This document shows positions 7,031 through 62,504 of a DNA stretch of 64,000 bases, piece after piece (position 1 is the first letter of the stretch; every line of letters starts with the position of its first letter). Source of the stretch: Squalus acanthias. Its lineage: Eukaryota. The position numbers were made by a program, and so were the translations under genes. The stretch covers positions 67,148,001 to 67,212,000 of the forward strand of contig CM059432.1 in NCBI GenBank assembly GCA_030390025.1. Direction: 5' to 3'. The notes under the pieces were generated by a model. That model was not told the DNA's origin. It saw only the letters and a program-made list of their open reading frames with translations, and did no database searches.

Positions 7031-7087
7031 TTTGTCACATTTTGGGATTTTATGACCAATTTTCCACAAAGGATTGGCAAATGAGAT

Positions 7088-12835: not shown

Positions 12836-13697
12836 CGGACTGATCGTAGAAATTACAGCACAGAGGGAGAACATTCAGCCTAACACTTGTGCTTCAACAC
12901 TAGCTCTTCAACTTAAAACATACAACTAAAAAGGGAGAGTGTCTAAACGCGCATTAGATTTAAGGGGACAATATCCCCATGTGCCTCCCCCTCCCCAAAC
13001 ATATGAACAGACTATGCTGTGATGTGGATATGGATAAAGATAAACAAGGGGAAGCTAGGTAAGTATACAAGGGAGACATGAATAGAAGGATATGTTGATC
13101 AGGTTAGATGAAGTAGGGTGGGAGACTAGTGTGAAGCATAAAGACACTGGCGTAAACCAGTTGAGCCAAATGGCTTGTTTCTGTGCTGTAAATTATATGC
13201 AAATAATCAAGGTCCAAGCACACCAGACCAGAGAGACAAAGGAAGGAACTTTTTAGGTAAGGAATCAACTATGATCACAGCACAAGACCATGCAGAAGGC
13301 AGGCAAATAACATTCATCATTCAATCACCTTTAAATACAAACAAATTAGCCCCATGTACTATAATAGTGGGCAACTTTGACAGTTTTGAGGCCAGAGTGG
13401 ATTAGAGAAATACCTGTCACAATCAGATAGTAGCACTTGTTCATCACTGATTGATCCACTTGTGACCAGAGGACTTCCACTACCCATGTTGTTGTCTTAC
13501 AGTCAAAGATACATCTCTGAAATTGTTGCCACTGGATATTCTCATATTAAATCTGTAAGTGGTTAACTGCAATAAGTGGCACCTAAATCCTTAGAGTAAG
13601 ACAATAGTCCTCGAGAAGCAATGATTGCAAATAAAGTACAGTCATAGAATCACAGAAATTTCAACGAAGAATATTTAGCCCATCACATTTATTTCTG

Positions 13698-13982
13698 TAA
13701 TAAAAACAGAAAATTCTGGAAATACTCAGCACGTCAGGTAGCATCTGTTGAGAGAGAAAAACAAGAGTTAACATTTCAGGTCAGAACTGACTTTCCGACA
13801 AAAGGTCACTGACCTGAAAAGTTAACTGTTTTTCTCGCTTCACAGATGGGCAATAAATGCTGGCCTTGCCAGCGATGCCCACATCCCATGAACAAATAAA
13901 AAAAAGATGCTGCCTGACCTGAGTATTTCCAGCATTTTCTGTTTTTATTAGACTTCCAGCATCTGCAGTATTTTGCTTTTGT
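13698..13982. mobile_element. Old inverted pair of family A pLTRs with a LINE tail inserted
   Basis: 13698-13790 is the inverse of 13795-13982; hammerhead cores degenerate; LINE 3' tail ggcaataaatgctggcc...polyA inserted at agatg. Confidence 0.75.
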
Positions 13983-15384
13983 ACATTTATTTCTGTGCTA
14001 GTTCCATACTCTAATTCCATTTTCCTGCTCTTTCCTTGTACCCTACAAGAATTTTCTTGCCCTACTGATTGTTCTAATTTACTCATCTTCAAGTTAGTTG
14101 TAGTAAAACATTTCATATTCTAATAAACCTTTGCATGAAAAAAAAGTCAAGCCTCCTGCTTTGTACTTCTAGCCCTAAGTTACTGATCAACTGATAATAG
14201 GATGTTATCCAAAATAAGTTAAAGCAATTACAAAGGACCAAAAAGACAAAACCTTTTCCTATTTTCCATTGATTGGAAGACTATGGAGAACATATTAAGT
14301 AGCAGTAAAATCAAATCAAAAATATACCCAGTAAAGAAAGGTGATTTTCCTGTTGTATGACACAAATTCCTACTTGTATATTGAGGCTAAACACTCCACA
14401 AGTCTGATGAAAAACCAAGTATTTTAAAGTAATTTACTGGAAGCTTCTTCTCAAGAGTATACATGAAATACTGAACAATTCAAAATGTAACTTTTTCCAA
14501 AAACAATGTCCAAGAATAAATAACACCAGAAGTTTGTGGCTACACCATGGCACATTTTTTTCCTAAAGTCAGTATACTTAATGTATTCCAATATTATTCT
14601 GAAAAGGTCAAAATTTAATTATTTTGCAATCTACTGACTTTTCCCTACAAAGTGATTATTAAAAACTATGTTTGACAGGTAACACTTCCAATAAGTAAAC
14701 TCGGAGGCCTAAATTGCTCCGCAGGTGAATCAATCCTTTCCCATCCTAGGGGTGGCACTTCTAACAGTGTACCACTTCCTCGGTACTGGACTGGAGACAG
14801 TCTAAGTTATGACCTCAAGTACTGTTGTGATGCACAAACACACAACCTTCCGCCCCGATGGAAGAATACTTCCAATGGAGTCAACTTGACACTTAAAAGA
14901 CAGTACTCAAGTTATCTTACATGAAACATATTCAGCCTTAAGAATATAAGCTTAACAAGAAAACAATTTTGAAATTCACCTGTTGCTCAGGACACTTAAA
15001 AAAAGACACATTCCACCAGGAATGCTTTGGAGCTATTTCTCCTTCCAGATTAAAAATTATATTTCAACCAGAGACAGAGACTTTAATGACCCCGAGTTAC
15101 AAGACAAATTTTAATAAAGGGAATTTCCATCTTTGGAAAACAATAAAAATTATAATTTCAATCCCTCACTTCAGTATCCCAAACACTGTGAAAGTGTAAA
15201 ACTAGCAGGTCCCATCAAGAGAACATCCATAGTTAAGTATTGTAAGTCATATATAACTTTTTAAAACAAGTTTGGAATAGTTTTACACAAAGGAACTAAG
15301 TCGAGGCCATTATAATCCTGGATCGTTTCACATTATAATTAAACAAAGCTACAAGCTCGTGCAACATTCAACTGTGCAAGTTAC

Positions 15385-15595: not shown

Positions 15596-17580
15596 AACAG
15601 GAGCAGGAGTAGGCCATTCGGCCCCTCGAGCCTGCTTCACCATTCAATAAGATCATGGCTGATCTGATCTTGGCCTCAACTCCACTTTCCTGCCCGCTCC
15701 CCATAACCCTCGATTTCCCCTGTTTTTCAATCTGTCGATCTCCGCCTTGAATATATTCAATGACTCAGCCTCCACAGCTCTTTGGGGTAGAGAATTCCAA
15801 AGATTCACGACCCTCAGAAGAAATTCCTCCTCATCGGGTTACGGAGAGAAGGCGGGGACGGGATACTGAATTGGAGGATCAGCCATGATCTCATTAAATG
15901 GCGGAGCAGGCTCGAAGGGCCGGATGGCCTACTCCTGCTCCTATCTTCTATGTATCTATGTATCTCAGTTTTAAGTTGGCGACCCCTTATTCTGAAACTA
16001 TGCCCTCTAGTTCTAGATTCCCCCACGAGGGGAAACATCCTCCCTGCATCTACCCTGTCAAGCCCCCTCAAAATCTTATATGTTTCAATATGATCACCTC
16101 TCATTCTTCTAAACTCCAATGAGTATAGGCCCAACCTGCTCAACCTTTCCTCATAAGACAACCCCTTCAACTCAGGAATCAACCTAGTGAACCTTCTATG
16201 AACTGCCTCCAATGCAAGTACTGTATATCCTTCCTTAAATAAGGAGACCAAAACTGTATGCAGTACGCCAGGTGTGATCTCACCAACACCCTGTACAGTT
16301 GTAGCAAGGCTTCCCTACTTTTATACTTCATCTCCCTTGCAATAAAGGCCAATATTCCATTTGCCTTCCTAATTACTTGCTGTATCTCCATGCTGACTTT
16401 TTGTGTTTCATGTACGAGGACACCCAGATCCCTCTGTACTGCAGCATTCTGTAGTCTCTCTCCATTTAAATAATATTTTGCTTTTTCATTCTTCCTATCA
16501 AAGTGGATAACCTCACATTTTCCCACATTATACTCCATCTGCCAAATTTTTGCACAGTTAACCTATCTATACCTCTTTGTGTACTCCTCACAACTTGCTT
16601 TCTCACCTATCTTTGTATCATCAGCAAATTTGGCTACATTACACTCGATCCCTTCATCCAAGTCATTAATATAGATTGTAAATAGTTGAGGCCCCAGCAC
16701 TGATCCTTGTGGCAACCCACTAGTTACATTTTGCCAACCTGACAATGACCCATTTATTCCGACTCACTGTTTTCTGTTAGTTAGCCAATCCTCTATCCAA
16801 TCTAATACATTACCCCCAACACTGCGAGCTCTTATCTTGTGCAGTAACCTTTTATGCGGCACTTTATCGAATGCCTTCTGGAAATCCAAATACACAACAT
16901 CTACTGGTTCCCCTTTACCCACCCCGCTCGTTACATCCTTAAAGAACTCTAGTGAATTTGTCAAACACGACTTCCCTTTCATAAAGCCATGTTGACTCTG
17001 CTTGACTGTATTATGATTTTCTAAATGTCCTGCTATTATTTCCTTCATAATGGATTTCAGCATTTTCCCAATGACAGACATTAGGCTAACTGCCTTATAG
17101 TTTCCTGCTTTCTGTCTCCTTCCTTTCTTGAATAGGGGAGTGACATTTGCAGTTTTCCAATCTGCTGGGACCTCTCCAGAATCCAGGGAATTTTGGTAGA
17201 TTACAACCAATGCATACACTATATCTGCAGCCACTTCTTTTAAAACCCTAGGATGCAGGCCATCAGGTCCAGGGGACTTGTCAGCCTTTAGTCCCATTAG
17301 TTTGCCTAGTACTTTTTCTCTTGTGCTAGTGATTGTTTTAAGTTCCTCCCTCCCTATAGCCCCTTGATTATCAATTATTATTGGGATGCTTTTAGTGTCT
17401 TCTACCGTGAAGACCGATACAAAATATTTGTTCAAAGTCTCTGCCATTTCCCTGTTTCCCATTATTAATTCCCCAGTCACATCCTCTAAGGGACCAACGT
17501 TTACTTTAGCTACTCTCTTCCTTTTTTATATACCTGTAGAAGCTCTTATTGTCTGTTTTTATATTTATTGCTAGTTTCTC
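15596..17580 (-). mobile_element. CR1 LINE, 5'-truncated (RT to 3' end), with an opposite-strand CR1 tail inserted at ~15836-15961
   Basis: ORFs with [43 protein letters not shown]. Confidence 0.93.
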
Positions 17581-24125: not shown

Positions 24126-25310
24126 TGGGGGGGGCGCGCGCGGAGAGAGGGGCGAGGGGGGGGAGGGAGAGAGAGAGAGAGAGCGCGCGCGAGAGGGAGG
24201 GGGCGGAGAGAGAGGGGGCAGAGAGGGAGCGAGAGAGGGGGGCCGAGAGGGAGGGAGAGACGGGGAGTGACAGGGAGAGGGAGCGACAGAGGGAGCAACA
24301 GGGAGAGGGAGCAGGAGAGGGAGCGACAGGGAGCAGGAGAGGGAAGGGGAGCTCGAGAGGGAGAGGGGGAGAGGGGGAGAGGGGGAGAGGGGGAGAGGGG
24401 GAGGGGGAGGGGGAGGGGGNNNNNNNNNNNNNNNNNNNNNNNNNNNNNNNNNNNNNNNNNNNNNNNNNNNNNNNNNNNNNNNNNNNNNNNNNNNNNNNNN
24501 NNNNNNNNNNNNNNNNNNNNNNNNNNNNNNNNNNNNNNNNNNNNNNNNNNNNNNNNNNNNNNNNNNNNNNNNNNNNNNNNNNNNNNNNNNNNNNNNNNNN
24601 NNNNNNNNNNNNNNNNNNNNNNNNNNNNNNNNNNNNNNNNNNNNNNNNNNNNNNNNNNNNNNNNNNNNNNNNNNNNNNNNNNNNNNNNNNNNNNNNNNNN
24701 NNNNNNNNNNNNNNNNNNNNNNNNNNNNNNNNNNNNNNNNNNNNNNNNNNNNNNNNNNNNNNNNNNNNNNNNNNNNNNNNNNNNNNNNNNNNNNNNNNNN
24801 NNNNNNNNNNNNNNNNNNNNNNNNNNNNNNNNNNNNNNNNNNNNNNNNNNNNNNNNNNNNNNNNNNNNNNNNNNNNNNNNNNNNNNNNNNNNNNNNNNNN
24901 NNNNNNNNNNNNNNNNNNNGAGAGAGAGAGACACAGAGAGAGAGAGACAGAGAGAGACACAGAGAGAGAGAGACACAGAGAGACACAGAGAGACACAGAG
25001 AGAGAGAGACACAGAGAGAGAGAGACACAGAGAGAGAGAGACACAGAGAGAGAGAGACACAGAGAGAGAGAGACACAGAGAGAGAGAGACACAGAGAGAG
25101 AGAGACACAGAGAGAGAGAGACACAGAGAGAGAGAGACACAGAGAGAGAGAGACACAGAGAGAGAGAGACACAGAGAGAGAGACACAGAGAGAGAGACCA
25201 GAGAGAGAGAGACAGAGAGAGAGAGACACAGAGAGAGAGAGACACAGAGAGAGAGAGACACAGAGAGAGAGACACAGAGAGAGAGAGACACAGAGAGAGA
25301 GACAGACAGA
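24126..25310. repeat. G/GA-rich simple repeats flanking a 500-N assembly gap (24420-24919)
   Basis: Direct reading; right side is GACACA(GA)n units. Confidence 0.95.
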
Positions 25311-29273: not shown

Positions 29274-29592
29274 CTAACAAAGACATTAACAGAATCAGTG
29301 CCAAGTCACTTGGCAATCTTGAAACATGAAAGTGTCTGTAATGTTCATAAAAACAGTGAAATGCATTGAAAAACTTCTACAGTGGAATACTGACAAATAT
29401 AACTAGCTTGACGTAAGTAATGGGACATAATTTGCTGCAGAAGTGAATCCAACGGCTTCTGCCATTAGTTAGACATGCCCTTGCACGTTTAGGTTTTTAA
29501 ATTTTTTGCATCGCAAGTTGCTGGAACTGCGATCTGATAATGTCACAACGAGGAAAAACAGGCACCTGGGACCTCAGTGAACAGGGATAACA

Positions 29593-30964
29593 GTGAGAAG
29601 TCGCACAACACCAGGTTATAGTCCAACAGTTTTATTTGAAATCACAAGCTTTCGGAGCGGCTGCTCCTTCGTCAGGTGAAGTAAAGGAATACAAAATCGA
29701 CAAAGCATATATAGATAGAGAACAATGCATGTGTAACTTACAATGGCAGACGACTACATTTAATCCTCCTGACTGTTTATCTGCCGAGGCGTGACAAAAG
29801 GCAATCAGGTCAGCCAGGAAGGCACCACATCAAAGACATAGCAAGATACAACTGAGACAATGAGGTGGGGTTACAGGGGGTCTAATGTGTCAAAAGCTGC
29901 AGTCGGTATGGAAAACGATAAACTTTAAAATTTTTACTTTTTTACTGGGAATCACATCTGAACAATCCAACGACGACTCAAGTCTGGATGACTCTACGTC
30001 ATGTATCGTGACATAAACCCAAGATCCCGGTTGAGGCCGTCCTCATGAGTGCGGAACTTGGCTATCAGTTTCTGCTCGATGATTTTGCGTTGTCGTGTGT
30101 CTCTAAGGCCGCCTTGGAGAACGCTTACCCGCAGATCCGAGGCTGAATGTCCTTGACTGCTGAAGTGTTCCCCAACTGGGAGGTAACAATCCTGCCTGGC
30201 GATTGTTGCGCGGTGTCCATTCATACGTTGTCTCAGTGTCTGCATGGTCTCGCCGATGTACCATGCCGCGGTGCATTCTTTCCTGCAACGTATGAGGTAG
30301 ACAACGTTGGCCGAGTCACATGAGTATGTACCATGTACCTGGTGGGTAGTGTCCTCACGTGTGATGATGGTATCTGTGTTGATGATCTGGCATGTCTTGC
30401 AGAGGTTGCCGGCAAGGTTGTGTGGTGTCGTGGTCGCTGTTATCCTGAAAGCTGGGTAATTTGCTGCGAACGATGGTACTCTGAGGTTAGGCGGCTGTTT
30501 GAAGGCAAGTAGTGGAGGCGTGGGGATGGCCTTAGCGAGGTGTTCGTTGTCATCGATGACATGTTGAAGGCTGCGAAGAACATGGCGTAGTTTCTCCGCT
30601 CCGGGGAAGGACTGGACGACGTAGGGTACCCTGTTGGTTGTGTCCCGTGTTTGCCTTCTGAGGAGGTCTATGCGATTTTTCGCTGTGGCCCGTCGGAACT
30701 GTCGATCGATGAGTCGAGCGTCATATCCCGTTCTTACGAGGCCGTTTTTCAGCGTCCGTAGGTGTCTATCGCGTTCCTCCTCGTCTGAGCAGATCCTGCG
30801 TATTCGCAGGGCTTGTCCATAGGGATGGCTTCTTTAACGTGGTTAGGGTGGAAGCTGGAGAAGCGCCGAAAGCTTGAGATTTCAAATAAAACTGTTGGAC
30901 TATAACCTGGTGTTGTGCGACTTCTCACTTTTGTCCACCCACAGTCCAACACCGGCATCTCCGC
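29593..30964 (-). mobile_element. Penelope-like element family B (Neptune-like), 5'-truncated, with inverted partial pLTR
   Basis: RT thumb, CKTC linker and GIY-YIG C-terminus (QTLRQRMNGHR...VGEHFS...GLNRDLG); 13-bp TSD AACAGGGATAACA at 29580 and 30965; inverted pLTR at 30866-30964. Confidence 0.9.
29642..29679 (-). ncRNA. Minimal hammerhead ribozyme, family B
   Basis: TCAC-CTGACGA-A-GGAGC-agcc-GCTCC-GAAA-GC-TT-GTGA; palindromic AGCT. Confidence 0.8.
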
Positions 30965-31959
30965 AACAGGGATAACAACTGTGTATCTCTAACTAATCAG
31001 ATTGAAGGACTGTGAAATTAACAGCCTAAGGACCGAGAAGGAAGTGTAAATTAGAGTGGGTGAATTCAATGTCAAATCAGGTACAGAAAAAGAGCAAGAT
31101 TGGATTGATGAGAGAAAATATGGACAGAAAGGAAAAGTTTACGTTTAAAATAAAAAGTTGAATCTCTGACAACAATTAAAACCTGAAGGAATGAGGCTTC
31201 ACACTTGTAACGGTTAATTTTCAGTGCCAGAGAGGTTGACTGGCAGCAATTAACACTCATCAGGTCATTAAATGGGTACTTAGACTGAAATGGATGAGAC
31301 TTAACTTTCTGTGGCGAGTTTCGTTCGTGTCCACCACGCAAATAAAGCAACTTTTCGCCATTCAATTCAGTTCAACGGTGAGGCAGACAGAGAGATGCAG
31401 TTTTCGCGAAGCTAACGACTAGGCAGCGCATCTTGGACGGCAACTTTTGGATTTTCGTGTTTAACTGTGCATCTGCCCTCACCTGAAGTTCCTGTACCAT
31501 TTGCGCATAAATAACAGCGAACACCAATAGCTTCAGCGTTATTGTGACAGCAAATTATCACCCAATATATCAGAGAAATATCAAAGCACTTTTTGAAGTC
31601 ATGTTTGTAGGAAATAAATGTTCCACTTATGACTGAAGTACAGATTTTATAAAACTATTTTACAACCAAAGTCCCTGCAATTTAAATAAAAAGTACCAGT
31701 TTATATAGTAACCAGTATTCACAAAGGTATAGTAGCCTTCATGTAAGAGAATAATCTATACACCAGTGAGGAATCGAACCTAATTAAGAAAATAATTGGA
31801 GCACAATTTTAACCCCCCACACGCCTCCAAACCTGCCTCCACGGGTCAATGAAAATCCAGCCCATGGTAATTATCCCAGTGTTCAAAAAACAAGGGTGAT
31901 TTCTGAAGCACTAATCTCTAAGGGAGTCACCAAACACAGAGGGGGAGGGGGGCACAAAT

Positions 31960-39000: not shown

Positions 39001-40280
39001 TTCTGTCCTTCTCAATTATTATTTTAAAGAATATATTATGGTCACTATTGCCTAGATGATCCCCTACTTTTACTTCTCTTAACTGCTCTGGTTCATTCCC
39101 CATTACTAGGTCCAATAGCGAATCCTCCCTTGTTCAGCTTTTTACATATTGGGTTAGAAAGGAGTCCAATACACATTATAGGAACACATTCCCTTATCCC
39201 CCCTTACCTCCCTCTTCTGTCCAATTAATATCAGGGTAGTTGAAATCCCCCATGATTATTATTCTATGTTTTTTACTCATTTCCCTAATTTGATTGTATT
39301 TTTCTTCATCCACTTCCCTTCCACTATTAGGTGGCCTGTAGACTACCCCTATTAGTGTGATTGATCCTTTATTATCTTTCAATGAAGGACACCATGGAAG
39401 CACAATAACACAAAGCTTTTCCTCAGATACATATTCCAAGTTATGAGAATTACTTTCCAAAGTTCAATATGCAGCTCGCTATTTCAAATTACTATATTTC
39501 AGTTCACAAGGCATGCTTGAAGTGCAACGCTGAGTATACGCCGTCGTAAGCCTTCTGAAAGGCTCCGCAAGTTCCAGGTTTTCACATGCGCTGCGCATAA
39601 ACCCGGAACTTGCAATCGGTCATGGTACGCCTTGACAGATCTAATGAACAGACTCGAAATTCACTTTCGCTGGCGCAGAGTTGGGCAGCCCAGCAAATGC
39701 CTACGAAACGCTTACGCCTGGTAGGGCCTGCTTTCACCAGCTTATGGGTTAATATAAATCTAAAATTTAAATATAAAAAATGCACAAACACAAAATTAGT
39801 TTATGCAAATTTTGGCCCAGATTAAAATGTTTAAAATTATTTTTTATTGTATTTGCTGTACTGAAGGGACTTTTAATTAAAGTTGAAAATGAGAACATAG
39901 TTTTATTGCAGTTATCTGAATTGTTTAATTATTTGGGGATCCCATTAGGGTTTGTGGGGATTCAGTTCGTAAATGGAATCCTCTTTTCTCATTGGAGGAC
40001 CTGGCCCACATGATCCCAGGGACCCTTCCAAACTGCCTGCGTTCCTGGGATCCATGGGCCTTTACGCAGGCATACGCCTGGAGGCCCAGGACCTGAACGC
40101 TCCGTAGCTTTGGAGCCAGGAGGTAAGTTGGTAGATCTTTCGTGGGTTGGAGGCGTACTCCAGAGGTATGCCTCCGACCGCAAATTCTGGGCCGTTAATT
40201 CTGTTTCTCTCTCTCCACAGATGCTGCCTGACCTGCTGAGTATTTCCAGCATTTTCTGTCTTTATTTCAGATTTCCAGCA
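36090..40280 (-). mobile_element. Chimeric CR1 copy 2: CR1 ORF2 (APE to 3' end, 36090-39385) with mosaic 5' region
   Basis: CR1 motifs throughout; 38590-40253 colinear with 1-1458; interrupted by a MITE and a CR1 tail. Confidence 0.85.
36607..37017. mobile_element. Tc1/mariner (pogo/Tigger-like) MITE, 411 bp
   Basis: TA|CAGGAAACTTTTGTTCATCCGGCA ... TGCCGGATAAACGAAAGTTTCCTG|TA; 24-bp TIR with 2 mismatches; splits a CR1. Confidence 0.9.
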
Positions 40281-42239
40281 TCCACAGTATTTTGCTTTTG
40301 CTCCTTCACTATCCTCATTTCTTAGCCCTCCCTCCTATGCTCAAATATTTGCCCTCCACTCAACATCTAACCCCTCAACCTCCCTTTGCAAGACCTCTAT
40401 CCAGCTCTTCCCAAAGTCATTGATTCCAACACTTGCTCTTTCCGCAGTTACCTTCACCCGCACCATTACGACCCTTATCCTGGCAACATTGTCTTTTTTC
40501 ACTCTCCGCTTTAGTGTTGTCCTACACCATGACCCTTCGCCTCAGTTTCTCAATTTAAAAAAAAAGGTTAATCATTTTTAGTGTGACTAATCCATTTAAA
40601 AAGAAACTGGTCTCAGTTTAGCAAACATTAGTTTGAAACCTTCCATTATAAATGGAAATAAACCAAAAAAGCAATGACCTGCCACCAAAAACAGAAGTGT
40701 ATTTTTGACAGCTTACAACAGATGTCTATGCATCTTACTCAATAGAAGGGCTATATGAATCTTACCCAATTACATTTCAAATCAAATATTTTTCTGATAT
40801 ATCCAAAAAGCAAATTATCTAGGGTTACAGCCAAAACTAATAAAAAGCGAGAGAATCTGGTCATATTTTCTTCGAGTTACAATTCAAAAATTAACTTCAA
40901 TAATCTGTTTATTGCAAATAGCAAAGACCCTCCAGCTCAGGAAGTGGTCTGTGTATGTAACTGGAGGCAGATTTAAACCAAATGAAAAAACCTCACGGCA
41001 TTACATGGAATCCAAAAGCAAGTTTACAGTTGAACAAAACACGAGAACTACCAAATTATTTTTAACTTTATAACTTTAGCATTCAATAATGGCTCTGACA
41101 ACAATCCTGTACATTCTGTTCCGCCACTTAAAACCCAATAACCTTATGACTTTAATTAAAAAATATCCTCTGGTAGAGTTGGAGCTTTGTAGCTCAGTAT
41201 ATTAGGCAAGAAATGACTGGAATAAACTGGCTTGAAAAGAACACTTTTCTCATTGTATTTGTACAGTGCCATAAAATTATGTAACGGAAAATGGCATTTG
41301 TTTCCAGTTCCAAAAACTGAGCAAATTTGAAGAAACAAAATTTAGACAATCTCAAAATTGATATACTTGTATTTTTGCTACACATGCTGCTTATTTGGGG
41401 AAAGCTGGTGCTGGAAGCAACAAGTGCTAATCTTTTGTTAATTGGTAACCTGCCAAACAAAGTTAGAAGTTTAGATCACTCTCCAACTACTTAATGAAAT
41501 GCTGCACTTGAAAGACGAATCACCCATTCTTCCTCAACTAACACACACATAAAAGTGTACAGGGATTGAACTAAAAAAAGCTCTTCAGTTTTGTACTTAC
41601 TGTAAAAAGTTAGTACTTTGTTTTGAGAGAACATTATACAACCAAAGTAAATAAATATATAGATATATGCTGTCAGTGATTAATGTGCAGACATCACAGA
41701 ACAGCTCTTACAGTGCCATCATCTGATCAAACATTGCTTTGCATGCTTTTGATCTGTCTACTTTGGTATAAAAATGAAAATCCAAATAGCCAAAGTCGTA
41801 TGCTCATTTCAAAGGGATGCATACTTTAGTGAAAAATATTGAATGCCTATAAATAGAAAATAAGTTTGCAACCCACAGGGCAAGTTACCTACACACATTT
41901 CAAGAAATTAAAAATGGGTCTGTGTTCACTGACCCCCATCTCCCCTGCTCCCTTATTTGCAGAATTAATTTCCTGGATTGATTATACCACTTTAACTCTA
42001 GGTTAGTTTTCAAAAGGTGGTGAAGAATAGTCATCATTTTGGTGGGAAGAAGAGCAAGAGAAGGTTGAGAAAAAGAGGCAAGAGAGAGAAGATAGTCACC
42101 TAATTAGATTAAAAAGTTTCAATTCCATTTGAGGAAAAGGCATTTTTTGTTATTCTCGTATCCCCAAATACTACCATTGCCACCCTTGCCATAGAACGCC
42201 CAAACTGCTTCCTTTCTGCTAAGTGACCAAGTCCATAGG

Positions 42240-45509: not shown

Positions 45510-45932
45510 AATTGAGCCTATACTCTCCTGGAGTTTAGAAAAATATGAGAGGTGACCTCATTGAAACATACAAGATTCTGAGGAGGATTGACAGGGTAGA
45601 TGAGGAGAGGTTGTTTCCCCTGGCAGGAAAGTCAAGAACGAGGGGGCACAGTCTCAGGATAAGGGGTCAGCCATTTAAGACTGAGATTAAGAAGAACTTC
45701 TTAACTCAGAGAGTTGAGTCTTTGGAATTCTCTACCCCAAAGGGCTGTGGATGCTGAATCGTTGAGTATATGCAAGGCTGAGATGGATAGATGTTTGGAC
45801 TCTAGAGGAGTCAAGGGATATGGAGATCGAGTGAGAAAGTAGAGTTGAGGTCAAAGATCAGCCTTGATCGTAATGCATGGCAGAGCAGGCTCGAGGGGCC
45901 ATGTGGCGAACTCCTGCTTCTGATTCTTATGT
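45510..45932 (+). mobile_element. CR1 LINE 3' fragment
   Basis: MRGDLIETYKILR...TRGHSLRIRG. Confidence 0.9.
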
Positions 45933-45947
45933 AAAACTTATGTAGAA

Positions 45948-46029
45948 CAGGAGTAAGAGCAGGAGTAAGAGCAGGAGTAAGAGCAGGAGTAAGAGCAGGA
46001 GTAAGAGCAGGAGTAAGAGCAGGAGTAAG
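45948..46029. repeat. Perfect 12-bp minisatellite (CAGGAGTAAGAG) x6.8
   Basis: Direct reading. Confidence 0.95.
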
Positions 46030-46319
46030 CCATTTGGCCTTTTGAGCCATTCAAGGAGAGGTGGCTAGACTCTCTTGTTGGAGATGAGCCATTCAATAAG
46101 ACCATGGCTGATCTTCTACCTCAACTCCACCTTCCCGCACTATTCTCATATCCCTTGATTCCCTTAGTTTCCAAACATCATTTGGAAGAAGCAATGAGAA
46201 TAGCAAGGGCACAGAATGCACTCTGACTTCAATGTCCATCACCAAGAGTGGCTCGGTAACACCACTACTGACTGAGCTGGGCGAGCCCTGAAGGGCATTG
46301 CTGCCAGACTGGGCATGCA

Positions 46320-49052: not shown

Positions 49053-50769
49053 GCAGCTACAATAAAATAGAGTACTTAAATAGAAAAACTTACAGGTTTC
49101 TGTTTTCACACTAATCACAACAGGAAATCTGAACCCACAGAACCCAACACAAACTACATGCATCTCAACTCACTGACATCAGCATATGCTGAACAGTGCA
49201 GCACAGCTAATTAGGCACCGGCAAATTAATAAACTAGTGTAGCAACAGACACCACTAAATCAATAAATTCAGAGAGCAACAAGCATCAACAAATTAATAA
49301 ATGATGACACCAGCTGTTACACAGGTGAATTCTAAACTAATGCAGCAGCAGGCATCAACAAATTAAAATGGAGCAGTGGGCATCAATGAAGCAATAAATT
49401 CAGAGCAGAGGGACACCAACAAATAAGTGCTCACTAACAAGCAGTGGTCACCAGTCAATTAATATCCCCTTCCTACCTTTGTCACCGCTGCTTCCAGCCA
49501 CCTCTGCTGCTAACTGACTGCCGGTTTCACCAGCAATTTACTTTTCAAAGCACTAGGAGTGATTATCTTTATATGCTGACTGTAGTCATAACGGCACGGA
49601 TGGAGGCCATTTGGCCCATCGAGTCCGTGCCGGCTCTCTGTACAGCAATCAGTCAGTCCCATTCCCCCGCTCTATTCCCGTAGCCCTGCAAGTTGATTTC
49701 CCTCAAGTGCCTATCCAGTCTCCACTTGAAAACATTGAGTGTCTCTGCTTCCACCACTTTCGTCGGCAGCGAGTTCCAGGTCCTCACCACTCGCTGCGTA
49801 AAAAAGTTTTTCCTTACATCCCCCGTATGGCTTGCCCAAAACCTTAAATTTGTGTCCCCTCGTCCTTGTACCATCAACTAGTGGGAACAGCCTTTTCCCC
49901 GTCTAGCCTATCCAAACCAGTCATAATCTTGTACACTTCGATCAAATCACCCCTCACCTCCTTTGCTCAAAGGAAAACAAATCCAGCTTCTCCAACCTGT
50001 CCTTGTAGCGAAGATCCCCCATCCCCAGAACCATTCTGGTAAATCTCCTCTGCACCCTCTCAGGGGCCTTCACAACCTTCCTAAAATGTGGTGACCAGAA
50101 CTGGACACAATACTCCAGTTGTGGCCTAACCAGTGCATTATAAAGATTCAGCATAACTTCTCTACTTTTGTACCCAATACCTCTATTTATGAAGCCCAAG
50201 ATCCCATATGCTTTGCTAACCACTCTCTCAATATGTCCTGCCACCTTCAGGGACCTATGCACATTAACTCCCAGGTCCCTCTGTCACTGCACACCCCTCT
50301 TTAAAACTGTGCCATTAAGTGTATATTGCCTCTCCCTGTTCCTTCTGCCAAAATGCATCACCTCACACTTCTCTATTAAATTCCACCTGCCACTTGTCTG
50401 CCCATTCTGCTAGCCTTCTATGTCCTGTTGCAGTCGAGTGGTATCATCATCACTGTTTGCCACACCCCCAAGTTTGGTGCCATCGGCAAATTTAGAAATT
50501 CTACTCTGTATTCCAATATCCAGGTCATTTATATATATCAAAAAAAGCAGTGGCCCCAGCACTAACCCTTGGGAACACCATTGTCTACCATCCTCCAGTC
50601 TGAAAAACAGCCATTTACCACAACTCGCTGTTTTCTGTCCTTAAGCCAATTCCTTATCCAAGGTGCCACTGACCCACCTATTCCATGAGCCTCAATTTTG
50701 TTAACCAGCCTTCTATGTGGTACTTTGTCAAATGCCTTCCGAAAATCCATGTAGACAACATCCATTGCA

Positions 50770-51036
50770 CCATCATCCCTTTTGTCTCTTAATCTCTCCT
50801 GCCTTCCATCCTATCACAGACCTTCCCTTTTGTTCTTCCCTTCCCCCCTTTCCCTGCCCCTACACTTGCTTAAAAACCTGTTCCATCTCCAGCTTTTTCC
50901 AGTTCTGACGAAGGGTCATCAACCTGAAACATTAACTCTGTTTCTCTCTCCGCAGATGCGGCCTGACCTGCTGAGTATTTCCAGCATTTTCTGTTTTTAT
51001 TTCAGATTTCCAGCATCCGCAGAATTTTGCTTTTGT
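50770..51036 (+). mobile_element. Family A pLTR with degenerate hammerhead (50901-50937)
   Basis: AGTT-CTGACGA-A-GGGTC-atc-AACCT-GAAA-CATT-AACT; two G>A changes at CpG sites. Confidence 0.8.
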
Positions 51037-51037
51037 A

Positions 51038-52212
51038 ATCTTCTTCTCTTAGGCAGTCCCTCGGAACAGAGGATGACTTGCTTCCACATTAAAAATGAGT
51101 TCTCAGGTGACTGATGAGCCCAATGCGGGACCTACAGTCTGTCACAGGTGGGGCAGACGGTGGTTGAAGGGGCGGGTGGGTGGGTTGCTTGGGTTGACGT
51201 GCGCTCGGGTTGACATGCGCTGCTTGCGCTTGGTTTCCACTTGCTCCCAGCGAAGAGATTCGAGGTGTTCGGCGCTTTCCTGGATACTTCTCCGCCACTT
51301 TGTGCGGTCTTGGGCCAGGGATTCCCAGGTGTCAGTGGGGATGTTGCACTTTTTCAAGGAGGCTTTGAGGGTGTCCTTGAAGCGTTTCCTCTGCTCACCT
51401 GGGGCTCTCTTGCTGTGTCGGAGCTCAGAGTAGAGCGCTTGTTTTGGGAGTCGCTTATTGGGCAATCGGACGATGTGACCCATCCATCGGAATTGATCGA
51501 GCGTGGTCAAAGCTTCGATGCTGGGGGTGTTGGCCTGAGCGAGAACACTGACATGGGTGCGCCTATCCTGCCAATGGATTTGCAGGATCTTGCGGAGGCA
51601 ACGTTGGTGGTACCTCTCCAGTGCTTTGAGGTGCCTGCTGTACATGGTCTATGTCTCTGAGGCATACAGCAGGGCAGGTATCACTGCTGCTCTGTAGACC
51701 ATGAGCTTCGTGTCAGGTTTGAGGTCCTGGTCTTCAAACACTCTCTTCCTCAGGCAACCGAAGGCTGCACTGGCACACTGAAGGCGGTGTTGGACTTCGT
51801 CATCGACGTCTGCCCTTGTCGACAGTAGGCTCCAGAGGTATGGAAAGTGGTCCACGTTGTCCAAGGCCTTGTCGTGGGTTTTGATAATCGGGGGGCAGTA
51901 CTGTGTGGCGGGGTCAGGTTGGTAGAGGACCTTTGTCTTACGGATGTTTAGTGTAAGGCCTATGCTCTCGTACGCTTCGGTGAAGGTGTTGACGATGGTT
52001 TGGAGTTCGACCTCCGAGTGAGCGCAGACGCAAGCGTCGTCTGCATACTGTAATTCGACAAGAGGATGGGACAACCTTGGATCTGGGCTGGAGGCGACGG
52101 AGATTGAACAGTTTCCCGTTTGTTCTGAAAATTAGCTCCACTCCAGCGGGGAGCTTACTGAGGGCGAGACGGAGCATTGCGGAAAGGAAGATCGAGAAGA
52201 GCGTTGGTGCGA
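51038..52212 (-). mobile_element. RTE-clade LINE, 5'-truncated
   Basis: LQYADDA, LNIRKTKV, YHQRCLRKILQIHWQD, RWMGHIVRLP..RLPKQALYSEL, KRFKDTLK. Confidence 0.92.
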
Positions 52213-53344
52213 ATCCATTGCATTCCCTTCATCAATCCTCTGTTACTTCATCAAAAAATTCAATTAGATTAGTCAAACACGATCTGCCTTTTACAAATCC
52301 GTGCTGGCTCTCCTTAATTAGCTTAAACCTCTCCAAATGCCCGTTAATTTTTTCCTTGATTATTGTTTCTAAAACTTTACCCACCACTGATGTTAAACTG
52401 ACTGTAGTTACTAGGATTGTCCTTGCACCCTTTCTTGAACAATGGTGTCACATTTGCCACTTTCCAATCCTCAGGCACCTCCCCCGCATCTAGGAAAGAT
52501 TGGAAAATGATGGCAAGCCCTTCCACTATCTCCTCCCCCAATTCTCTTAGCAACCTGGGATGCAAGCCATCAGGACCAGGCGACTTGTCCACTCGAAGCA
52601 TACCCAGCCTTTCTATCAATTTTCACCCCTTCCATTGCTTCTACCTTTTCCACTTCTACTGATATTTTGTAAGCATCCACCTCCTTAGTAAACACCGATA
52701 CAAAGTACTCATTCAGTATTCTAGCCTTGCCCTGCACCTCTAAGCATATATCACCTTTTCTGTCCCCAATAGGCCCCACCCCACCTCTTAATACCCGCTT
52801 ACTGTTTACATGCCGCTGGAAGATATTTGGGTTCCTTTTTATGTTAACCGCCATTCTACTCTCATATTCTCTCTTTGCCAATCTTATTTTCATCTTCACA
52901 TCTCCTCTCAACTTAGTGTATTTGGTCTGGTTCTCCCGTGAAGAATTCACCTGACGTACACCCTCTTTTTTTGTTTCATCATCTTCTCCATCTCACTCAT
53001 CATCCAAGGAGCCCTTGCTTTGGTTCCCTTATCCTTCCCTCTTGTTGGAATGTACCTAGCCTGTACATGGAACATCTCCTCCTTAAAGATCACCCATTGT
53101 TCCATTACAGTTTTTCCTGTCAGTCTTTGGTTCCATTTTACCCTGGCTAGATCCTTTCGCATCACATTGAAGTTAGCCCTATTCCAGTTTAGAAGTTCCA
53201 CTCTAGACTGTCCCTTGCTCTTCTCCATTGCTAATCTAAATCTTATGATACGATGATCACTCGTACCCAAGTGTTCTCCCAGACACTTGGTCGACCTGGC
53301 CCACCTCATTCCCTAGCACCAGATCCAGCAATGCCTCCTTCCTA

Positions 53345-53553
53345 CGATAGCAAAATACTGCAGATGCTGGAAATCCGAAATAACAACAGAAAACGCTGGA
53401 AAAACTCAGCAGGCGAGGCAGCATCCGTGGAGAGAGAAACAGAGTTAACGTTTCAGGTTCTGACGAAAGGTCATCGACCTGAAACGTTAACTCTGTTTCT
53501 CTCTCCACGGATGCTGCCTCGCCTGCTGAGTTTTTCCAGCGTTTTCTGTTATT
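53345..53553. mobile_element. 209-bp palindromic family A mini-element
   Basis: 14-bp TSD ATGCCTCCTTCCTA (53331, 53554); perfect 74-bp inverted arms 53385-53458 / 53477-53550. Confidence 0.92.
53456..53492 (+). ncRNA. Minimal hammerhead ribozyme, family A
   Basis: GGTT-CTGACGA-A-AGGTC-atc-GACCT-GAAA-CGTT-AACT. Confidence 0.75.
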
Positions 53554-56229
53554 ATGCCTCCTTCCTAGTTGGGCCAAGAACATATTGGTCAAGGAAATTC
53601 TCCCGAACACATTTCAGAAATTCCACCCCCTCCTTTCCCTTTACGCTAGCATTACCCCAATCGATATTTGGGTAATTAAAGTACCCCAATATCACCACTC
53701 TATAGCTCTTGCATATCTCTGCAATTTCCCTGCAGATTTGTTCCTCTACCTCCCGCTCACTATTTGGAGGCCTGCAGAATACCCAAATAGCATGATCATA
53801 CCCTTTTTGCTCTTCTACTCTAACCAAATGGATTCTGTCCTTGTCCCCTCAAGAACTTCCTCCCTTTCCAATACTACAATGTCTTCCTTAATCAGCACTG
53901 CCACCCCACCTCCCTTTTTTCCTTCCCTATCTTTTCTGAACAGCTTGTACCCTTAAATATTAAGTGCCCAGTCCTCACCGTTTTTAAGCCACGTTTCCAT
54001 TATTGCCACAACATCATATTGCCACACAGCTAATTGTGCTTGTAGCTCGCCAACCTTATTCACCACACTTTGTGCGTTTACGCACATGCATTCTAAACCC
54101 TTTTTTGAATTTTTCGTAGTCTTTCTTAGTCTGCTCCTATCTAATATGGTACTACTTCCGCCTCTAGTACTATCCAACATACTCACTCTTTTATGCACCT
54201 TATTCCTCTTTTCTACTCCTATATGCTGGTGCCCATTCCCCTGCCAAGCTAGGTTAAACCCTCCCCAACAGCACTAACAAACCTCCCCGCGAGAATATTG
54301 GTCCCGGCTCTGTTGAGGTGTAACCCGTCCAGCTTGTACAGGTCCCACCTTCCCCAGAAACGGTCCCAATGCCTCAGGAATCTAAATCCCTCCCTCCTGC
54401 ACCATCTCTCCAGCCATGCTTTCATCTGTTCTATCCTCCTATTCCTGTACTCACTAGTACGTGGCACCAGGAGTAATCCGGAGATTATTACCTTTGAGGT
54501 CCTGCTTTTTAATCTCTCTCCTAGCTCCCTAAACTCTGCCTGCAGGACCTCATCACTCTTTCTGCCTATGTCATTGGTACAGATATGGACAACGACCTCT
54601 GGCTGTTCACCCTCCCCCCTCAGAGTGTCCTGCAGCCGCTCAGTGACATCCTTGACCCTGGCACCAGGGAGGCAACATACCATCCTGGAGTCACGTCTAT
54701 GGCCGCAGAAACACCTGTCTGCTCCCCTAACTATCGAATCCCCTACCACTATTGCTCTTCCACTCTTTCCTCCCTTGCTGTGCAGCTGAGTCACCCGTGG
54801 TGCTGTGGACTTGACTCTGGCTGCACTCCCCAGAGGAACCATCGCCCTCAGCAGTACTCATAACGGAATACTGGTTGGAGAGCACGATGCACTCCGGGGA
54901 CTCCTGCACTACCTGCCTGGTCCCCCTCTTCCGTCTGGCGGTCACCCATTCCCTTTCTGCCTGCATACTCTTAAGCTGCGGGGTGACCACCTCTAGAAAC
55001 GTGCTATCCACATAACTTTCAGCCTCGCGGATGCACTGCAGTGACTCCAGCCGCCGCTCAAGCTCCGAAACCCGGAGCTCGAGTTGCTGTAGCTGGCGAC
55101 ACTTCCCGCACATGTGGTTGTCCAGGCTACTTGAAGCGTCCAGGACTTCACACGTGGCACAAGATGTGCACTCCACGGGACTGAGCTGCCCTGCCATGCC
55201 TCTGTTTAATAGACAAAGAACTAACCCAGCAGAAATAAACTTAAAACTTAAAAAAAAATACACTCACCAGCTACTCACCAATCAGCTCCTTGTGACAATG
55301 TCACTTTTTTTACTCTGACGTCACTTTCAAAAACTGCCTCTGTTGAGTTGCTGCCGCTCCTTTTAACTGCTCCGCTCTCACTGTGCTCCCTCCAGGTCCG
55401 CTCCTTCCGGTCTCAGGTGCCTGCCGCTCGGGAATGCTCCTTTTAACTGCACCGCTCGCGCTGTGCTCCCTCCGGTCTCAGACTCCTGCCGCTCGGGACT
55501 GCTCCGCTCTTGCAGTGCTCTATCCAGGTGCGCCCCTCCCGGTCTCAGGAGTTAAAAGTTAGTTAAAAAAACTAAAAGCCTTTCAGTCAAAGAAAGAGAC
55601 TTTCAGTTTTCTAATGCATGTAAACAGCATCAGCTTAAGTGCTTGGAATGTTTCCTGCCCTTTATAGTGGATAAAGCACACTGAATTTTTAAAGAAAGAT
55701 TGAAGAGAAAAAAGTTCGCAGAGCAGAGGGTGCAGATGTGGTGTGTGTTCTGCAGGTGACACAATGAAGTCAGGTGTCAAGGGTCAAGTATCACACTGTG
55801 GGTCACAAGGCCCAGGAGGTCAGAGTCAGCCATTATGAACCAACACGAAGTCTGAGGTCAGCTACTATACCAAGAACAAACAGTGCCGGTTGGCGGATCC
55901 CAAAATCAGGTGGCCAGTCACTATACTAAGGAAAACAGTGGAAGGGATTCGGGTAAATCCCAGCCCAAATTCTTATGGGTGGAAACAGAAGTGGGAGGGT
56001 GCAAATGGACAAGAGGATCCCAAGTTACCGTTCTGTCAGGTGAACACCTGAAACTCAGGTCTCAAACACCTGACAAATGAGAAAACATTTGAAAATGGGG
56101 TGGGGGGAAATGGCTGAAGTTGAGACTCAAAATCACATCACTAAAAAACAACTATATAATGGACAGAAATTATATTCCCTTCCATCAGTCAGTAAAATAA
56201 ATTTCAATATCACCAATTGCTAAATCGCA

Positions 56230-60529: not shown

Positions 60530-60750
60530 TACGATAGCAAAATACTGCGGATGCTGGAAATCCAAAACAACAACAGAAAACGCTGGAAAAACTCAGCAGG
60601 CCAGGCAGCATCCGTGGAGAGAGAAACAGAGTTAACGTTTCAGGTCGAAGACCTTTCGTCAGAACTGGAAAAAAAGCAGGAAATGAAATAGATTTAAAGC
60701 AAGTATAAAGCTGGGAAAAGGGGGAGGGGATGAAAGAACAAAAGGAGATA
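60530..60750 (-). mobile_element. Solo family A pLTR
   Basis: Inverse of 7088-7290. Confidence 0.8.
60630..60666 (-). ncRNA. Minimal hammerhead ribozyme, family A, intact, sense to RB1CC1
   Basis: Reverse complement is identical to 7153-7189. Confidence 0.8.
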
Positions 60751-61658
60751 TTAAGAGACATTGAAAGATAATCAAGGCAAGAGGTGTTAATGTGACAGGT
60801 TGAGGCTAAGTGAAGTGTGAAATGCGCTGGCAGAATGAAGGACAGCTGCCCGCTTCTATGTACACACATAAACAAGTACTTTTAAGCACAGGTTCCTTAA
60901 AATTGTAGGTGGCCTTTAAATTCTAGCATGCTCTGCCAATAGTGCATTAATTTAAAATGTTTTACATCAGGTCAAAAGAAAAAGAGCAGCAGACCCTCTA
61001 GGAGCAACTGATGAGGAAGACAGCAAGTAGTGCCAGGGAGGACCAGAGCCGAAAGACCAAAGAGCTAGTCAGGGAGTACCAAGGAGCGGGCTTCAGATTG
61101 AGAGGCAGAGCAAGATTTCAAGCACAACAATTGTGCCATATTAAACAATTTATCAGTTTTAAAAATACCATCTTTTTTTGCAGGAGGCTCAGAGTGTAGT
61201 GAAGGTAGCTGAGGGATACAAGTTGAAAGGAGTAACAGTGCCACCTAGTGTGTGAAAGCTAACCACTATAGTAAACATGGATAGTTTATATTTAGATTAG
61301 TATTGGTTATGACCAGGTATTACTCGCTTAGGCATGGGAAAGCATTGTAAAATCATGAGGAAGCAAGTGTGGCAACAGAAAATGTAGTCACAAACATTTT
61401 AATATATTACTATTCAATCTCCTGGGAAGCAAGACTAAGTGTTGTCTTCAGGTGAGCCATGGTTAGAGGACAGAGACATAACAGAGCCAGGGCACACAAA
61501 CATAATTCCAATCCCCATCACAGTTTCTTCCTTCTTCATATTTCCATATACATTCCTGTGTCCACATTTATAATGCGGAGATGCCGGTGTTGGACTGGGG
61601 TGGACAAAAGTGAGAAGTCGCACAACACCAGGTTATAGTCCAACAGTTTTATTTGAAA

Positions 61659-61696
61659 TCACAAGCTTTCGGAGCTGCTGCTCCTTCGTCAGGTGA
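61659..61696 (-). ncRNA. Minimal hammerhead ribozyme, family B
   Basis: TCAC-CTGACGA-A-GGAGC-agca-GCTCC-GAAA-GCTT-GTGA on the minus strand. Confidence 0.8.
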
Positions 61697-61906
61697 AGTG
61701 AAGAATACAAATCGGCAAAGCATATATAGACAGAGAACAATGCCTGTGCAGTGTACAATGTCAGACGACTACAGTTAATCTTTCTGACTGCCTTTTATCA
61801 CACCTCGGCAGAGAGACAGTCAGAAAGATTAACTGTAGTCGTCTGACATTGTACGCTGCAGGCATTGTTCTGTCTATATATGCTTTGCCGATTTGTATTC
61901 TTCACT

Positions 61907-61944
61907 TCACCTGACGAAGGAGCAGCAGCTCCGAAAGCTTGTGA
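61907..61944 (+). ncRNA. Minimal hammerhead ribozyme, family B
   Basis: TCAC-CTGACGA-A-GGAGC-agca-GCTCC-GAAA-GCTT-GTGA. Confidence 0.8.
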
Positions 61945-62504
61945 TTTCAAATAAAACTGTTGGACTATAACCTGGTGTTCTGCGACTTCTCACTTTTGTC
62001 CACATTTATAATGGAAACTGTCTATGTAAATAGATCACACTGCATCACTCTCCCGTTAGCAACGGCAACGCATCCACTGGGAGGAGGGTGGGCCAATGTG
62101 CAATTACAGCATCACAAGCTTCATTTGCGGTATCCAGTATAAATGTGATAATAGAAATTTAGAATAGAAACCATAGGGCAGCAGTGCACACAGATGCAAG
62201 ATTTTTTTTAAAAATACAGACAAAATGCTTGCTCAGCAGTTGTATTTTTATAGGCAAACACTATTTTAAAACCTGTGAATGGCTGACAACCTAATATAGT
62301 CATGCAAGATAACTTTAAAAAAAAGTTATTTGGTCCAGTCTATCATTAAAGGGCTTTGAATGTTTTTCTCTGGCTGATTGGCTATGACTAGGTCTATTCT
62401 GAAACCATGAAGGTGATCATGATGGCCACACTATATATCCAGTAAGGCAAAATAAAGTGACAAAGTTTGCTACATTTATCTAGATATTGGGCAAGTAAAG
62501 GCAC

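What the first reader, a model, noticed from the sequence alone, without database searches (positions are those of the whole stretch)
53331..53567. 209-bp ORF-less hairpin retroelement centred on a hammerhead, with 14-bp TSD
Seen: perfect 74-bp inverted arms with an 18-nt spacer holding the CTGACGA core, flanked by a perfect 14-bp TSD inside CR1 ORF2. Both arms share the variant AGGCGAGGC, whereas the solo copies at 7211 and 60598 have AGGCCAGGC. Inference: both arms were copied from one template in a single recent event. It may be a minimal non-autonomous ribozyme-bearing unit moved by PLE RT; it mimics a MITE and would form long dsRNA in the pre-mRNA.
Basis: partly seen in the sequence, partly recalled or inferred. 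Interest (0 to 1): 0.7.

Follow-up and report, generated by a model that had tools for sequence, protein, structure and literature searches.

The report
Minimal back-to-back Penelope retroelement insertion
This is a real 209-base insertion made of two back-to-back copies of the end of a very common Penelope-type jumping gene in a shark-like genome, likely an ordinary by-product of how such elements insert rather than a new self-spreading element.

Summary
In detail: 74-bp perfect inverted arms, an 18-nt spacer with the hammerhead core and an exact 14-bp TSD in a CR1-type endonuclease domain. The insert is asymmetric: a 114-nt arm carries a ~34-nt tail, and a 95-nt tail-less arm carries the spacer. 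This is the published Penelope-like element (PLE) layout (inverted 5'-truncated copy, tail at one end) at very small size. The window holds three more inverted PLE insertions with 13-17-bp TSDs, each with its own junction; one still carries a GIY-YIG ORF end. The short arm's two boundaries match the family's most frequent listed boundaries in public contigs. Neither arm contains the other, so both target nicks were likely primed, then closed at the self-complementary hammerhead stem. The hairpin is predicted to bury the ribozyme. A propagating hairpin family is not supported: the junction occurs once in 64 kb and was not among the listed contig joints. That test is weak, and no genome was available. 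The scan reported such PLE hairpins before on other pieces of this genome (e1-7790103, e1-9860681). Known kind, low interest.

The parts
53331..53344 (.). Left target-site duplication (14 bp), CR1-type ORF2 endonuclease sequence
53345..53378 (-). PLE 'tail' (~34 nt), present at this end only; the outer end matches the 3' end of the solo copies
   Evidence: depth of public contigs rises at the matching place (table 2)
53345..53458 (-). Long arm (114 nt): element 3' end including the tail, 5'-truncated inside hammerhead stem II; 96.5% identical to the young solo copies
53451..53458 (.). Inversion junction: 2-nt exact microhomology inside an 8-nt stretch that matches the natural upstream sequence at 6 of 8 positions
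53459..53476 (+). Spacer (18 nt): belongs to the short arm; hammerhead core CUGACGA and 5' strand and loop of stem II
53456..53492 (+). Minimal type I hammerhead motif (4-bp stem I with one G-U, 5-bp stem II, palindromic 15.2-16.2 pair, no helix III); predicted to be buried in the hairpin; no Rfam match
   Evidence: layout compared with PMC4209133
53459..53553 (+). Short arm (95 nt): starts at the 5' edge of the hammerhead, ends at the tail-less 3' site, lacks one GTT unit 3 nt from its end
53554..53567 (.). Right target-site duplication (14 bp)
52232..55263 (-). Host: decayed CR1-type LINE (esterase ORF1, endonuclease, start of RT), interrupted by the insert; outer limits are those of the ORF pieces scanned
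13685..13996 (.). Comparison B: older hairpin of the same repeat family, 14-bp TSD, tail on one arm, different junction, later ~60-nt insert in one arm
61559..62013 (.). Comparison C: hairpin of a second PLE family, two hammerheads, 17-bp direct repeat (7 nt of it also match the element), tail on one arm
29580..30977 (.). Comparison D: second PLE family, 279-aa ORF end (RT thumb region to GIY-YIG-like domain) plus a short inverted tail-bearing arm that begins in hammerhead stem II, 13-bp TSD
60532..60790 (-). Young solo copy of the same repeat, used as reference for laying public contigs and reads

Best explanation
It is one insertion of two head-to-head copies of the 3' end of an abundant Penelope-like retroelement, likely made in a single event in which both nicked target strands primed reverse transcription. 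Shown: 14-bp TSD; a tail-bearing 114-nt arm and a tail-less 95-nt arm; a junction with microhomology at hammerhead stem II; the same layout in three other insertions of the window. Inferred steps: (1) the GIY-YIG endonuclease nicked both strands 14 nt apart; (2) one nick primed at the tail start site and the other at the tail-less start site ~34 nt further in, with a 3-nt slip just after priming; (3) the tail-less cDNA stopped at the hammerhead's 5' edge, a frequent 5' boundary of this family that lies at an Inr-like motif about 31 nt after a TATA-like box and may be the 5' end of the RNA; (4) the two cDNA ends were closed through the self-complementary sequence around stem II, either by annealing to each other or by fold-back of the tail-less cDNA followed by annealing to the tail cDNA, which would also explain the shared variant. 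The result is predicted to be a dead end: as RNA it would fold into a 74-bp rod that buries the ribozyme. It is centred on the hammerhead because short cDNAs tend to end there, not because the hairpin is a unit that spreads.
For: Layout equals the typical PLE arrangement (inverted 5'-truncated copy, 30-40-bp tail at one end only: PMC8557442 passages and Fig. 2 legend; inverted pLTRs with 8-10-bp TSD and 31-bp tail: PMC3846280 passages). An anole PLE protein cleaves and extends both strands in vitro and starts RT at two sites that delimit the tail (PMC11167929, main text parts 1-2 of 4). 4 of 4 simple inverted insertions examined have a 13-17-bp direct repeat; 0 of 5 single arms examined have one of 8 bp or more at the limits searched (one of the five later proved to be an arm of a complex old insertion). 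4 of 4 junctions differ. In A, C and D the tail-less arm reaches further 5' than the tail arm. On 22,266 (X1) and 35,123 (X2) public contigs laid on the solo copy, the largest loose-end rows shown for X1 and X2 include 60665 (59 and 80 contigs) and, for X1, 60565 (55 contigs), with heterogeneous flanks (agreement 0.35-0.4); 12 of 497 rows were shown. The short arm maps to 60566 at its 3' end and 60663-60665 at its 5' end. TATA-like and Inr-like motifs lie at the same spacing before the hammerhead in 4 of 4 family-1 and 3 of 3 family-2 copies examined. The same repeat's upstream region follows a short ORF end beside PLE RT fragments at 8511-11488 (tblastn to PLE proteins down to E 4e-24).
Against: No genome was held, so junction recurrence was not counted genome-wide. 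The contig test listed no labelled strand-change joint at all among 10 rows, so its power to see hairpin junctions is low; the two raw-read runs gave 9 and 0 reads. The promoter and run-off step rests on short motifs, and several other Inr-like matches occur upstream; the same bases also read as a polypyrimidine tract plus CAG, a possible 3' splice site, as at helix I of D. virilis Penelope (PMC4209133), whose promoter is reported as internal and TATA-less (PMC2377424 passages). In the anole system the two RT start sites were used equally on both strands, which does not by itself explain one tail and one tail-less end. The shared private variant is explained only by a source variant, fold-back or later repair, and its frequency in the family could not be read (the variant table omits common known variants). 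In B both arms reach into the hammerhead centre and the junction is more complex.
Confidence: 0.75

Rival explanations
1. One reading: the 209-nt hairpin is a non-autonomous unit that is transcribed and re-inserted as a whole by PLE RT, forming a family with one shared junction.
For: Both arms share one variant and are identical over 74 nt. Both outer ends keep the RT start regions. Non-autonomous PLE derivatives are described (tandem retrozymes, bioRxiv 10.64898/2026.07.22.740005 passages; non-autonomous Chlamys).
Against: Exact junction 1 time in 64 kb; 4 of 4 junctions in the window differ; not among the joints listed from 57,389 contigs, where single-copy depth was about 9 and listed joints had depth 7-62 (weak test); one visibly inverted joint listed there has another junction. 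Hammerhead stems have predicted probability 0.0 in the hairpin. The junction lies on a natural imperfect inverted repeat, so even identical junctions could arise independently.
Confidence: 0.07
2. Single-template self-priming: one cDNA (or an antisense template, as proposed for rotifer PLEs) folded back to give a longer symmetric palindrome, later trimmed by an off-centre deletion and loss or gain of the tail at one end.
For: Shared variant and perfect arms. Self-priming was proposed to explain head-to-head PLE palindromes (PMC3846280 Discussion passage). An earlier scan note (e1-9860681) argues that arms were not made independently at another locus.
Against: The tail lies only on the left and the spacer only on the right; the GTT slip is only on the short arm; both ends sit directly on an intact TSD and on the family's standard ends; the same polarity is seen in C and D. 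Secondary trimming would need to repeat this pattern each time.
Confidence: 0.13
3. Two separate PLE insertions, or recombination between two nearby inverted copies, made the hairpin.
For: The family is very abundant (at least 8 pieces in 64 kb), and PLE endonuclease can cut its own pLTR in vitro.
Against: One exact TSD frames the whole insert and the host ORF reads through a single TSD copy; both arms share a variant absent from the two young solos; there is no second TSD inside.
Confidence: 0.03
4. A MITE (cut-and-paste DNA transposon) or an assembly fold-back artefact.
For: Short, non-coding, long inverted arms, TSD; the palindrome was seen only in the assembly, not in reads.
Against: The ends are not inverted repeats of each other; the arms are a PLE 3' end that occurs mostly as single copies; a read fold-back would not return to the flank, make a 14-bp duplication or give unequal arms.
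Confidence: 0.02

Closest known systems
Endonuclease-containing Penelope-like elements with inverted pLTR (D. virilis Penelope; Adineta vaga Pen2/Pen2a/Pen3a; general scheme in Craig et al. 2021, PMC8557442; PMC3846280; PMC2377424; passages read)
   Same: Head-to-head inverted 5'-truncated copy, 30-40-nt tail at one end only, TSD around the whole unit, hammerhead in the terminal repeat, palindrome or microhomology at the inverted junction.
   Different: Here both arms are cut back to about 100 nt, so no ORF is left and the junction falls in the hammerhead; TSD is 14 bp against 8-10 bp in the rotifer examples.
PAc, Poseidon-type PLE of Anolis carolinensis (Frangieh et al. 2024, PMC11167929; main text parts 1-2 of 4 read, supplements not seen)
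   Same: Two RT start sites that delimit the tail; both target strands cleaved and extended; start sites about 110-120 nt into the ORF that begins at hammerhead stem II, a distance like the arm lengths here.
   Different: PAc is autonomous and was tested in vitro; the text read does not describe hairpin products. The clade of this shark family was not determined, and no ATG lies in its stem II.
Minimal hammerheads (min-HHR) of metazoan PLEs (Cervera and de la Pena 2014, PMC4209133; parts 1-2 of 4 read)
   Same: Type I core, short helix I (4 bp), extra base before helix II, palindromic 15.2-16.2 pair and no helix III. The paper already notes dual min-HHRs 100-700 bp apart on opposite strands in Schistosoma.
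   Different: The pair closing helix II is A-U or G-U here, not the conserved G-C; in this insert the motif is predicted to be sequestered; cleavage untested.
L1 twin priming (5'-inverted insertions; abstract start of PMC2837659 in a search listing, passages of bioRxiv 10.1101/2024.12.14.628481; original model recalled)
   Same: Both target nicks prime cDNA, giving an inversion inside one TSD.
   Different: In L1 the two cDNAs copy different parts of one RNA; here they copy the same stretch, so the product is a palindrome.
Non-LTR retrozymes (bioRxiv 10.64898/2026.07.22.740005, passages read)
   Same: Short, ORF-less, hammerhead-bearing, PLE-related.
   Different: Retrozymes are head-to-tail tandem families; this is one head-to-head pair with no shown family.

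Membership tests
Penelope-like element insertion (endonuclease-containing) | Terminal repeat linked to an ORF with PLE-type RT and GIY-YIG endonuclease | tested here: met
   Not in the insert itself. The same repeat's upstream region follows a short ORF end and lies beside PLE RT fragments at 8511-11488; the link is physical, in an old rearranged copy. The sister family's ORF (D) matches RT-bearing proteins at E 6e-147. Pfam itself named neither piece.
Penelope-like element insertion (endonuclease-containing) | Inverted 5'-truncated copy joined head to head | tested here: met
Penelope-like element insertion (endonuclease-containing) | 30-40-nt tail at one end only | tested here: met
   ~34 nt on the left arm only; tail-less boundary frequent in public contigs
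Penelope-like element insertion (endonuclease-containing) | Hammerhead motif in the terminal repeat | tested here: met
   Motif read from sequence; no Rfam model reached its cut-off
Penelope-like element insertion (endonuclease-containing) | Clade (Penelope/Poseidon, Neptune, Nematis) by RT phylogeny or linker motif | not tested
   No tree built; the linker is missing from the family-1 fragments. Family 2 has a Cys-rich linker.
Minimal hammerhead ribozyme (min-HHR) | Conserved core, short helix I, extra base before helix II, palindromic 15.2-16.2 | tested here: met
   criteria from PMC4209133
Minimal hammerhead ribozyme (min-HHR) | G10.1-C11.1 pair closing helix II | tested here: not met
   A-U (or G-U) in family 1; G-C in family 2
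Minimal hammerhead ribozyme (min-HHR) | Self-cleavage (as dimer or protein-assisted) | not testable with these tools
   Folding predicts that both stems are lost in the hairpin
Propagating non-autonomous element (retrozyme- or SINE-like) | Several dispersed copies with the same ends and the same internal junction | tested here: inconclusive
   1 copy in 64 kb; not among listed contig joints, low power; no genome; 0 hits in metagenome, viral and prokaryote collections, which are not expected to hold shark DNA
Non-LTR retrozyme | Head-to-tail tandem units | tested here: not met
   Head-to-head pair
MITE | Terminal inverted repeats at both ends | tested here: not met
   The left end has ~34-40 nt with no counterpart on the right

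The most novel reading that the evidence does not exclude
The hairpin is the founder or a member of an ORF-less, MITE-like family that PLE reverse transcriptase copies as a whole, keeping one fixed junction. That would be a retroposed palindrome that spreads although its ribozyme is folded away, and that seeds perfect dsRNA across a shark genome.
Probability: 0.07. Interest if true: 0.6.

Novelty: new member of a known kind. Interest (0 to 1): 0.2.

Why it matters
As a single locus it matters little: it is a small example of a published PLE insertion layout. Its use is as a clean footprint of a step that is still unresolved in print, namely how PLEs make inverted ends and a one-sided tail. If a genome-wide set of such hairpins shows one tail end, one tail-less end, a TSD and junctions clustered at the hammerhead edge, that would support priming from both nicks with run-off near the RNA 5' end. 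It would also warn annotators that such hairpins can be mislabelled as MITEs.

Tried and rejected
No whole genome was held, so no genome-wide junction count was possible. Rfam at gathering thresholds: 0 matches in the window. Pattern scans for the inverted junction and for the family in metagenome, viral and prokaryote collections: 0 hits each; uninformative for a shark repeat. Sequencing runs: no RNA holder listed, so expression and editing were not tested. Raw-read runs X22 and X23 laid 9 and 0 reads: no test. The variant table lacks variants that are common among the window's own copies, so it was not used for the frequency of the shared C>G. Four joints table 5c that step back 30-34 places could be hairpins or tandem repeats; they were not counted. 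Host gene: 29 of the 82 stop-free frames listed for 55.5-64 kb were scanned against Pfam and gave only RT fragments and sub-threshold hits; the rest of the window was not scanned, so the pre-mRNA claim is open. Pfam did not name the PLE ORF ends. Rejected: MITE, assembly artefact, two separate insertions, pure single-cDNA fold-back (reasons under rivals). Literature searches showed no listing or passage on a propagating hairpin PLE family or on the run-off model; Evgen'ev and Arkhipova 2005 and Arkhipova 2006 were not read and may hold such models. PMC12910113 passages added nothing.
Full report
Observation. A 14-bp direct repeat (53331-53344, 53554-53567) frames 209 nt that hold 74-nt exact inverted arms and an 18-nt spacer with CTGACGA. 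The core folds at -158.3 kcal/mol, z = -23.9 against 200 shuffles. The flank scores as an endonuclease of LINE type, with a GDSL-esterase ORF1 upstream and an RT piece downstream. Each flank with one copy of the duplication reads in the same peptide, so the insert landed cleanly in a decayed CR1-type ORF2. The nearest relatives of a PLE protein from the window are from sharks, hence 'shark-like genome'.

Anatomy. The insert consists of two pieces of one repeat whose single copies lie at 7085-7290, 60532-60790, 50765-51037, 40193-40300 and elsewhere. The left piece (53345-53458, minus strand, 114 nt) runs from inside hammerhead stem II to the natural 3' end and includes a tail of about 34 nt. 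The right piece (53459-53553, plus strand, 95 nt) starts at the 5' edge of the hammerhead, owns the spacer, and stops before the tail; it lacks one GTT unit 3 nt from its end. So neither arm contains the other. The junction has 2 nt of exact microhomology inside an 8-nt stretch that matches the natural upstream sequence at 6 of 8 places. Both arms share one C>G change that the two young solo copies lack. Against a three-way comparison each of the three copies has 2 private changes in 114 nt, and no difference over 74 nt would still have a chance of about 0.075 if the arms had aged like the solos.

Context in the window. Three more inverted insertions have the same plan. B (13685-13996) is an older copy of the same repeat with a 14-bp TSD. 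C (61559-62013) and D (29580-30977) belong to a second family, with 17-bp and 13-bp direct repeats (7 nt of C's repeat also match the element). D still carries a 279-aa ORF end whose best relatives are RT-bearing proteins of 490-1,140 residues, plus a short inverted arm that begins in hammerhead stem II. All 4 have a tail on one arm only, and all 4 junctions differ. In A, C and D the tail-less arm reaches further 5'; B is more complex. None of 5 single arms examined showed a direct repeat of 8 bp or more at the limits searched; one of these later proved to be part of a complex old insertion (8511-11488) that ties this repeat's upstream region to an ORF end and to PLE RT fragments. The exact central junction of the finding occurs once in the 64 kb.

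Evidence from outside. No genome was held. Of 24 runs listed, the best held 55% of the sampled words of 52000-55500. Four runs were laid on the young solo copy. Two contig sets of organism A laid 22,266 and 35,123 contigs, and one of them also covered the unique flank at depth 8.7, so organism A is the same species or a close relative. The two raw-read runs laid 9 and 0 reads. Among the 12 loose-end rows shown of 497, the boundary at 60665 has 59 and 80 contigs and the one at 60565 has 55 (X1 only), both with mixed flanks. The short arm of the finding maps to 60566 at one end and 60663-60665 at the other. The finding's junction is not among the 10 joints of table 5 or the 12 of 17 shown in table 5c; one joint there is visibly inverted and has another junction, also in stem II. 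Against over-reading: no row was labelled as a strand change, although such insertions are common in the window, so the test has little power for single hairpins. Pattern scans of three non-animal collections found nothing.

Hammerhead. The motif fits the minimal PLE type (4-bp helix I, extra base before helix II, palindromic 15.2-16.2, no helix III; PMC4209133, parts 1-2 read), except that helix II closes with A-U instead of G-C. Rfam gave no match. In two solo copies stem II forms with predicted probability 0.86-1.0 and stem I with 0.01-0.03; in the hairpin both are 0.0. That paper found no cleavage by a single minimal motif, and the anole hammerhead needed the protein and was dispensable for insertion in vitro. 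A ribozyme role for this insert is therefore unlikely.

Mechanism. The published PLE layout is an inverted 5'-truncated copy with a 30-40-bp tail often at one end only (PMC8557442, passages; PMC3846280, passages; PMC8969392, passage; PMC2377424, passages). The anole PLE protein cleaves and extends both target strands and starts RT at two sites that delimit the tail (PMC11167929, parts 1-2; its supplementary figures, not seen, bear on genomic ends). I infer that both nicks were primed here, one at each start site. A TATA-like box about 35 nt and an Inr-like motif 4-7 nt before the hammerhead core occur in 4 of 4 and 3 of 3 copies examined of the two families, and the frequent 5' boundary lies at that motif. 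If the RNA starts there, RT started at the nearby tail sites would run off after 100-135 nt. Two such short cDNAs closed through the self-complementary stem II region give a ~210-nt hairpin centred on the hammerhead. Closure could be end-to-end annealing, or fold-back of the tail-less cDNA and annealing of its sense copy to the tail cDNA; the second would explain the shared variant and the slip on one arm only. These two routes cannot be told apart here. The promoter step is the weakest: the motifs are short, the same bases read as a 3' splice site, and the D. virilis promoter is reported as internal and TATA-less.

Comparison and novelty. It works like, and is, a PLE insertion with inverted terminal repeat, reduced to its smallest form. 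It fails the tests for MITE (no terminal symmetry) and for retrozyme (not tandem). Membership of a propagating non-autonomous family is untested genome-wide and unsupported by what could be checked. Seven literature searches showed no description of such a family or of the run-off model, but two key reviews were not read. Earlier notes of this scan describe PLE hairpins on other pieces of the same genome and judge them a known kind; these are unchecked notes and were not used as support.

Verdict. Real feature, known kind, interest 0.2. The most novel reading left, a self-spreading hairpin family, has about 7% probability.

Noticed in passing
window 13685-13996: Older hairpin insertion of the same repeat, 14-bp TSD, different junction; one arm holds a later ~60-nt A-tailed insert framed by a 5-bp repeat (looks like a SINE 3' end; label recalled).
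   Followed up: partly
window 61559-62013: About 420-bp hairpin of a second PLE family with two hammerhead motifs, tail on one arm, junction with ~7-nt near-perfect microhomology.
   Followed up: partly
window 29580-30977: Textbook inverted PLE insertion of the second family: 279-aa stop-free ORF end with a Cys-rich linker and GIY-YIG-like domain, short inverted tail arm, 13-bp TSD; 83% identical to a shark protein.
   Followed up: partly
window 8511-11488: Old, complex PLE insertion with nested inversions: outer inverted 3' regions (82% alike), inner inverted RT fragments (80-91% alike) and a GA-rich microsatellite.
   Followed up: partly
window 60666-60700, 7122-7156, 61875-61910 and other copies: TATA-like and Inr-like motifs at fixed spacing just before the hammerhead in both PLE families; the family-1 motif coincides with a frequent 5' boundary in public contigs and also reads as a 3' splice site.
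   Followed up: partly
window 1200-1458 and 40000-40300: Two family-1 copies are cut at the same place near the hammerhead cleavage region and joined to the same other repeat, which suggests a site-preferring insertion (an earlier scan note, e1-7805368, reports a Harbinger hot spot in such a repeat).
   Followed up: no
proteins P0007, P0008, P0010, P0011, P0013: Several annotated shark gene isoforms (septin, XRCC5, PPP1R12A-like and others) contain pieces of the family-2 PLE ORF, probably exonised or mis-annotated insertions.
   Followed up: no
window 45790-46179 and 15594-15947: Inverted pairs of CR1-like 3' ends, one around a 9-nt tandem repeat at 45945-46030.
   Followed up: no
window 51100-52210: A second LINE fragment (RTE-like by recalled motifs) abuts the CR1-type host on the minus strand.
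   Followed up: no
window 24420-24919: A run of 500 N (assembly gap).
   Followed up: no
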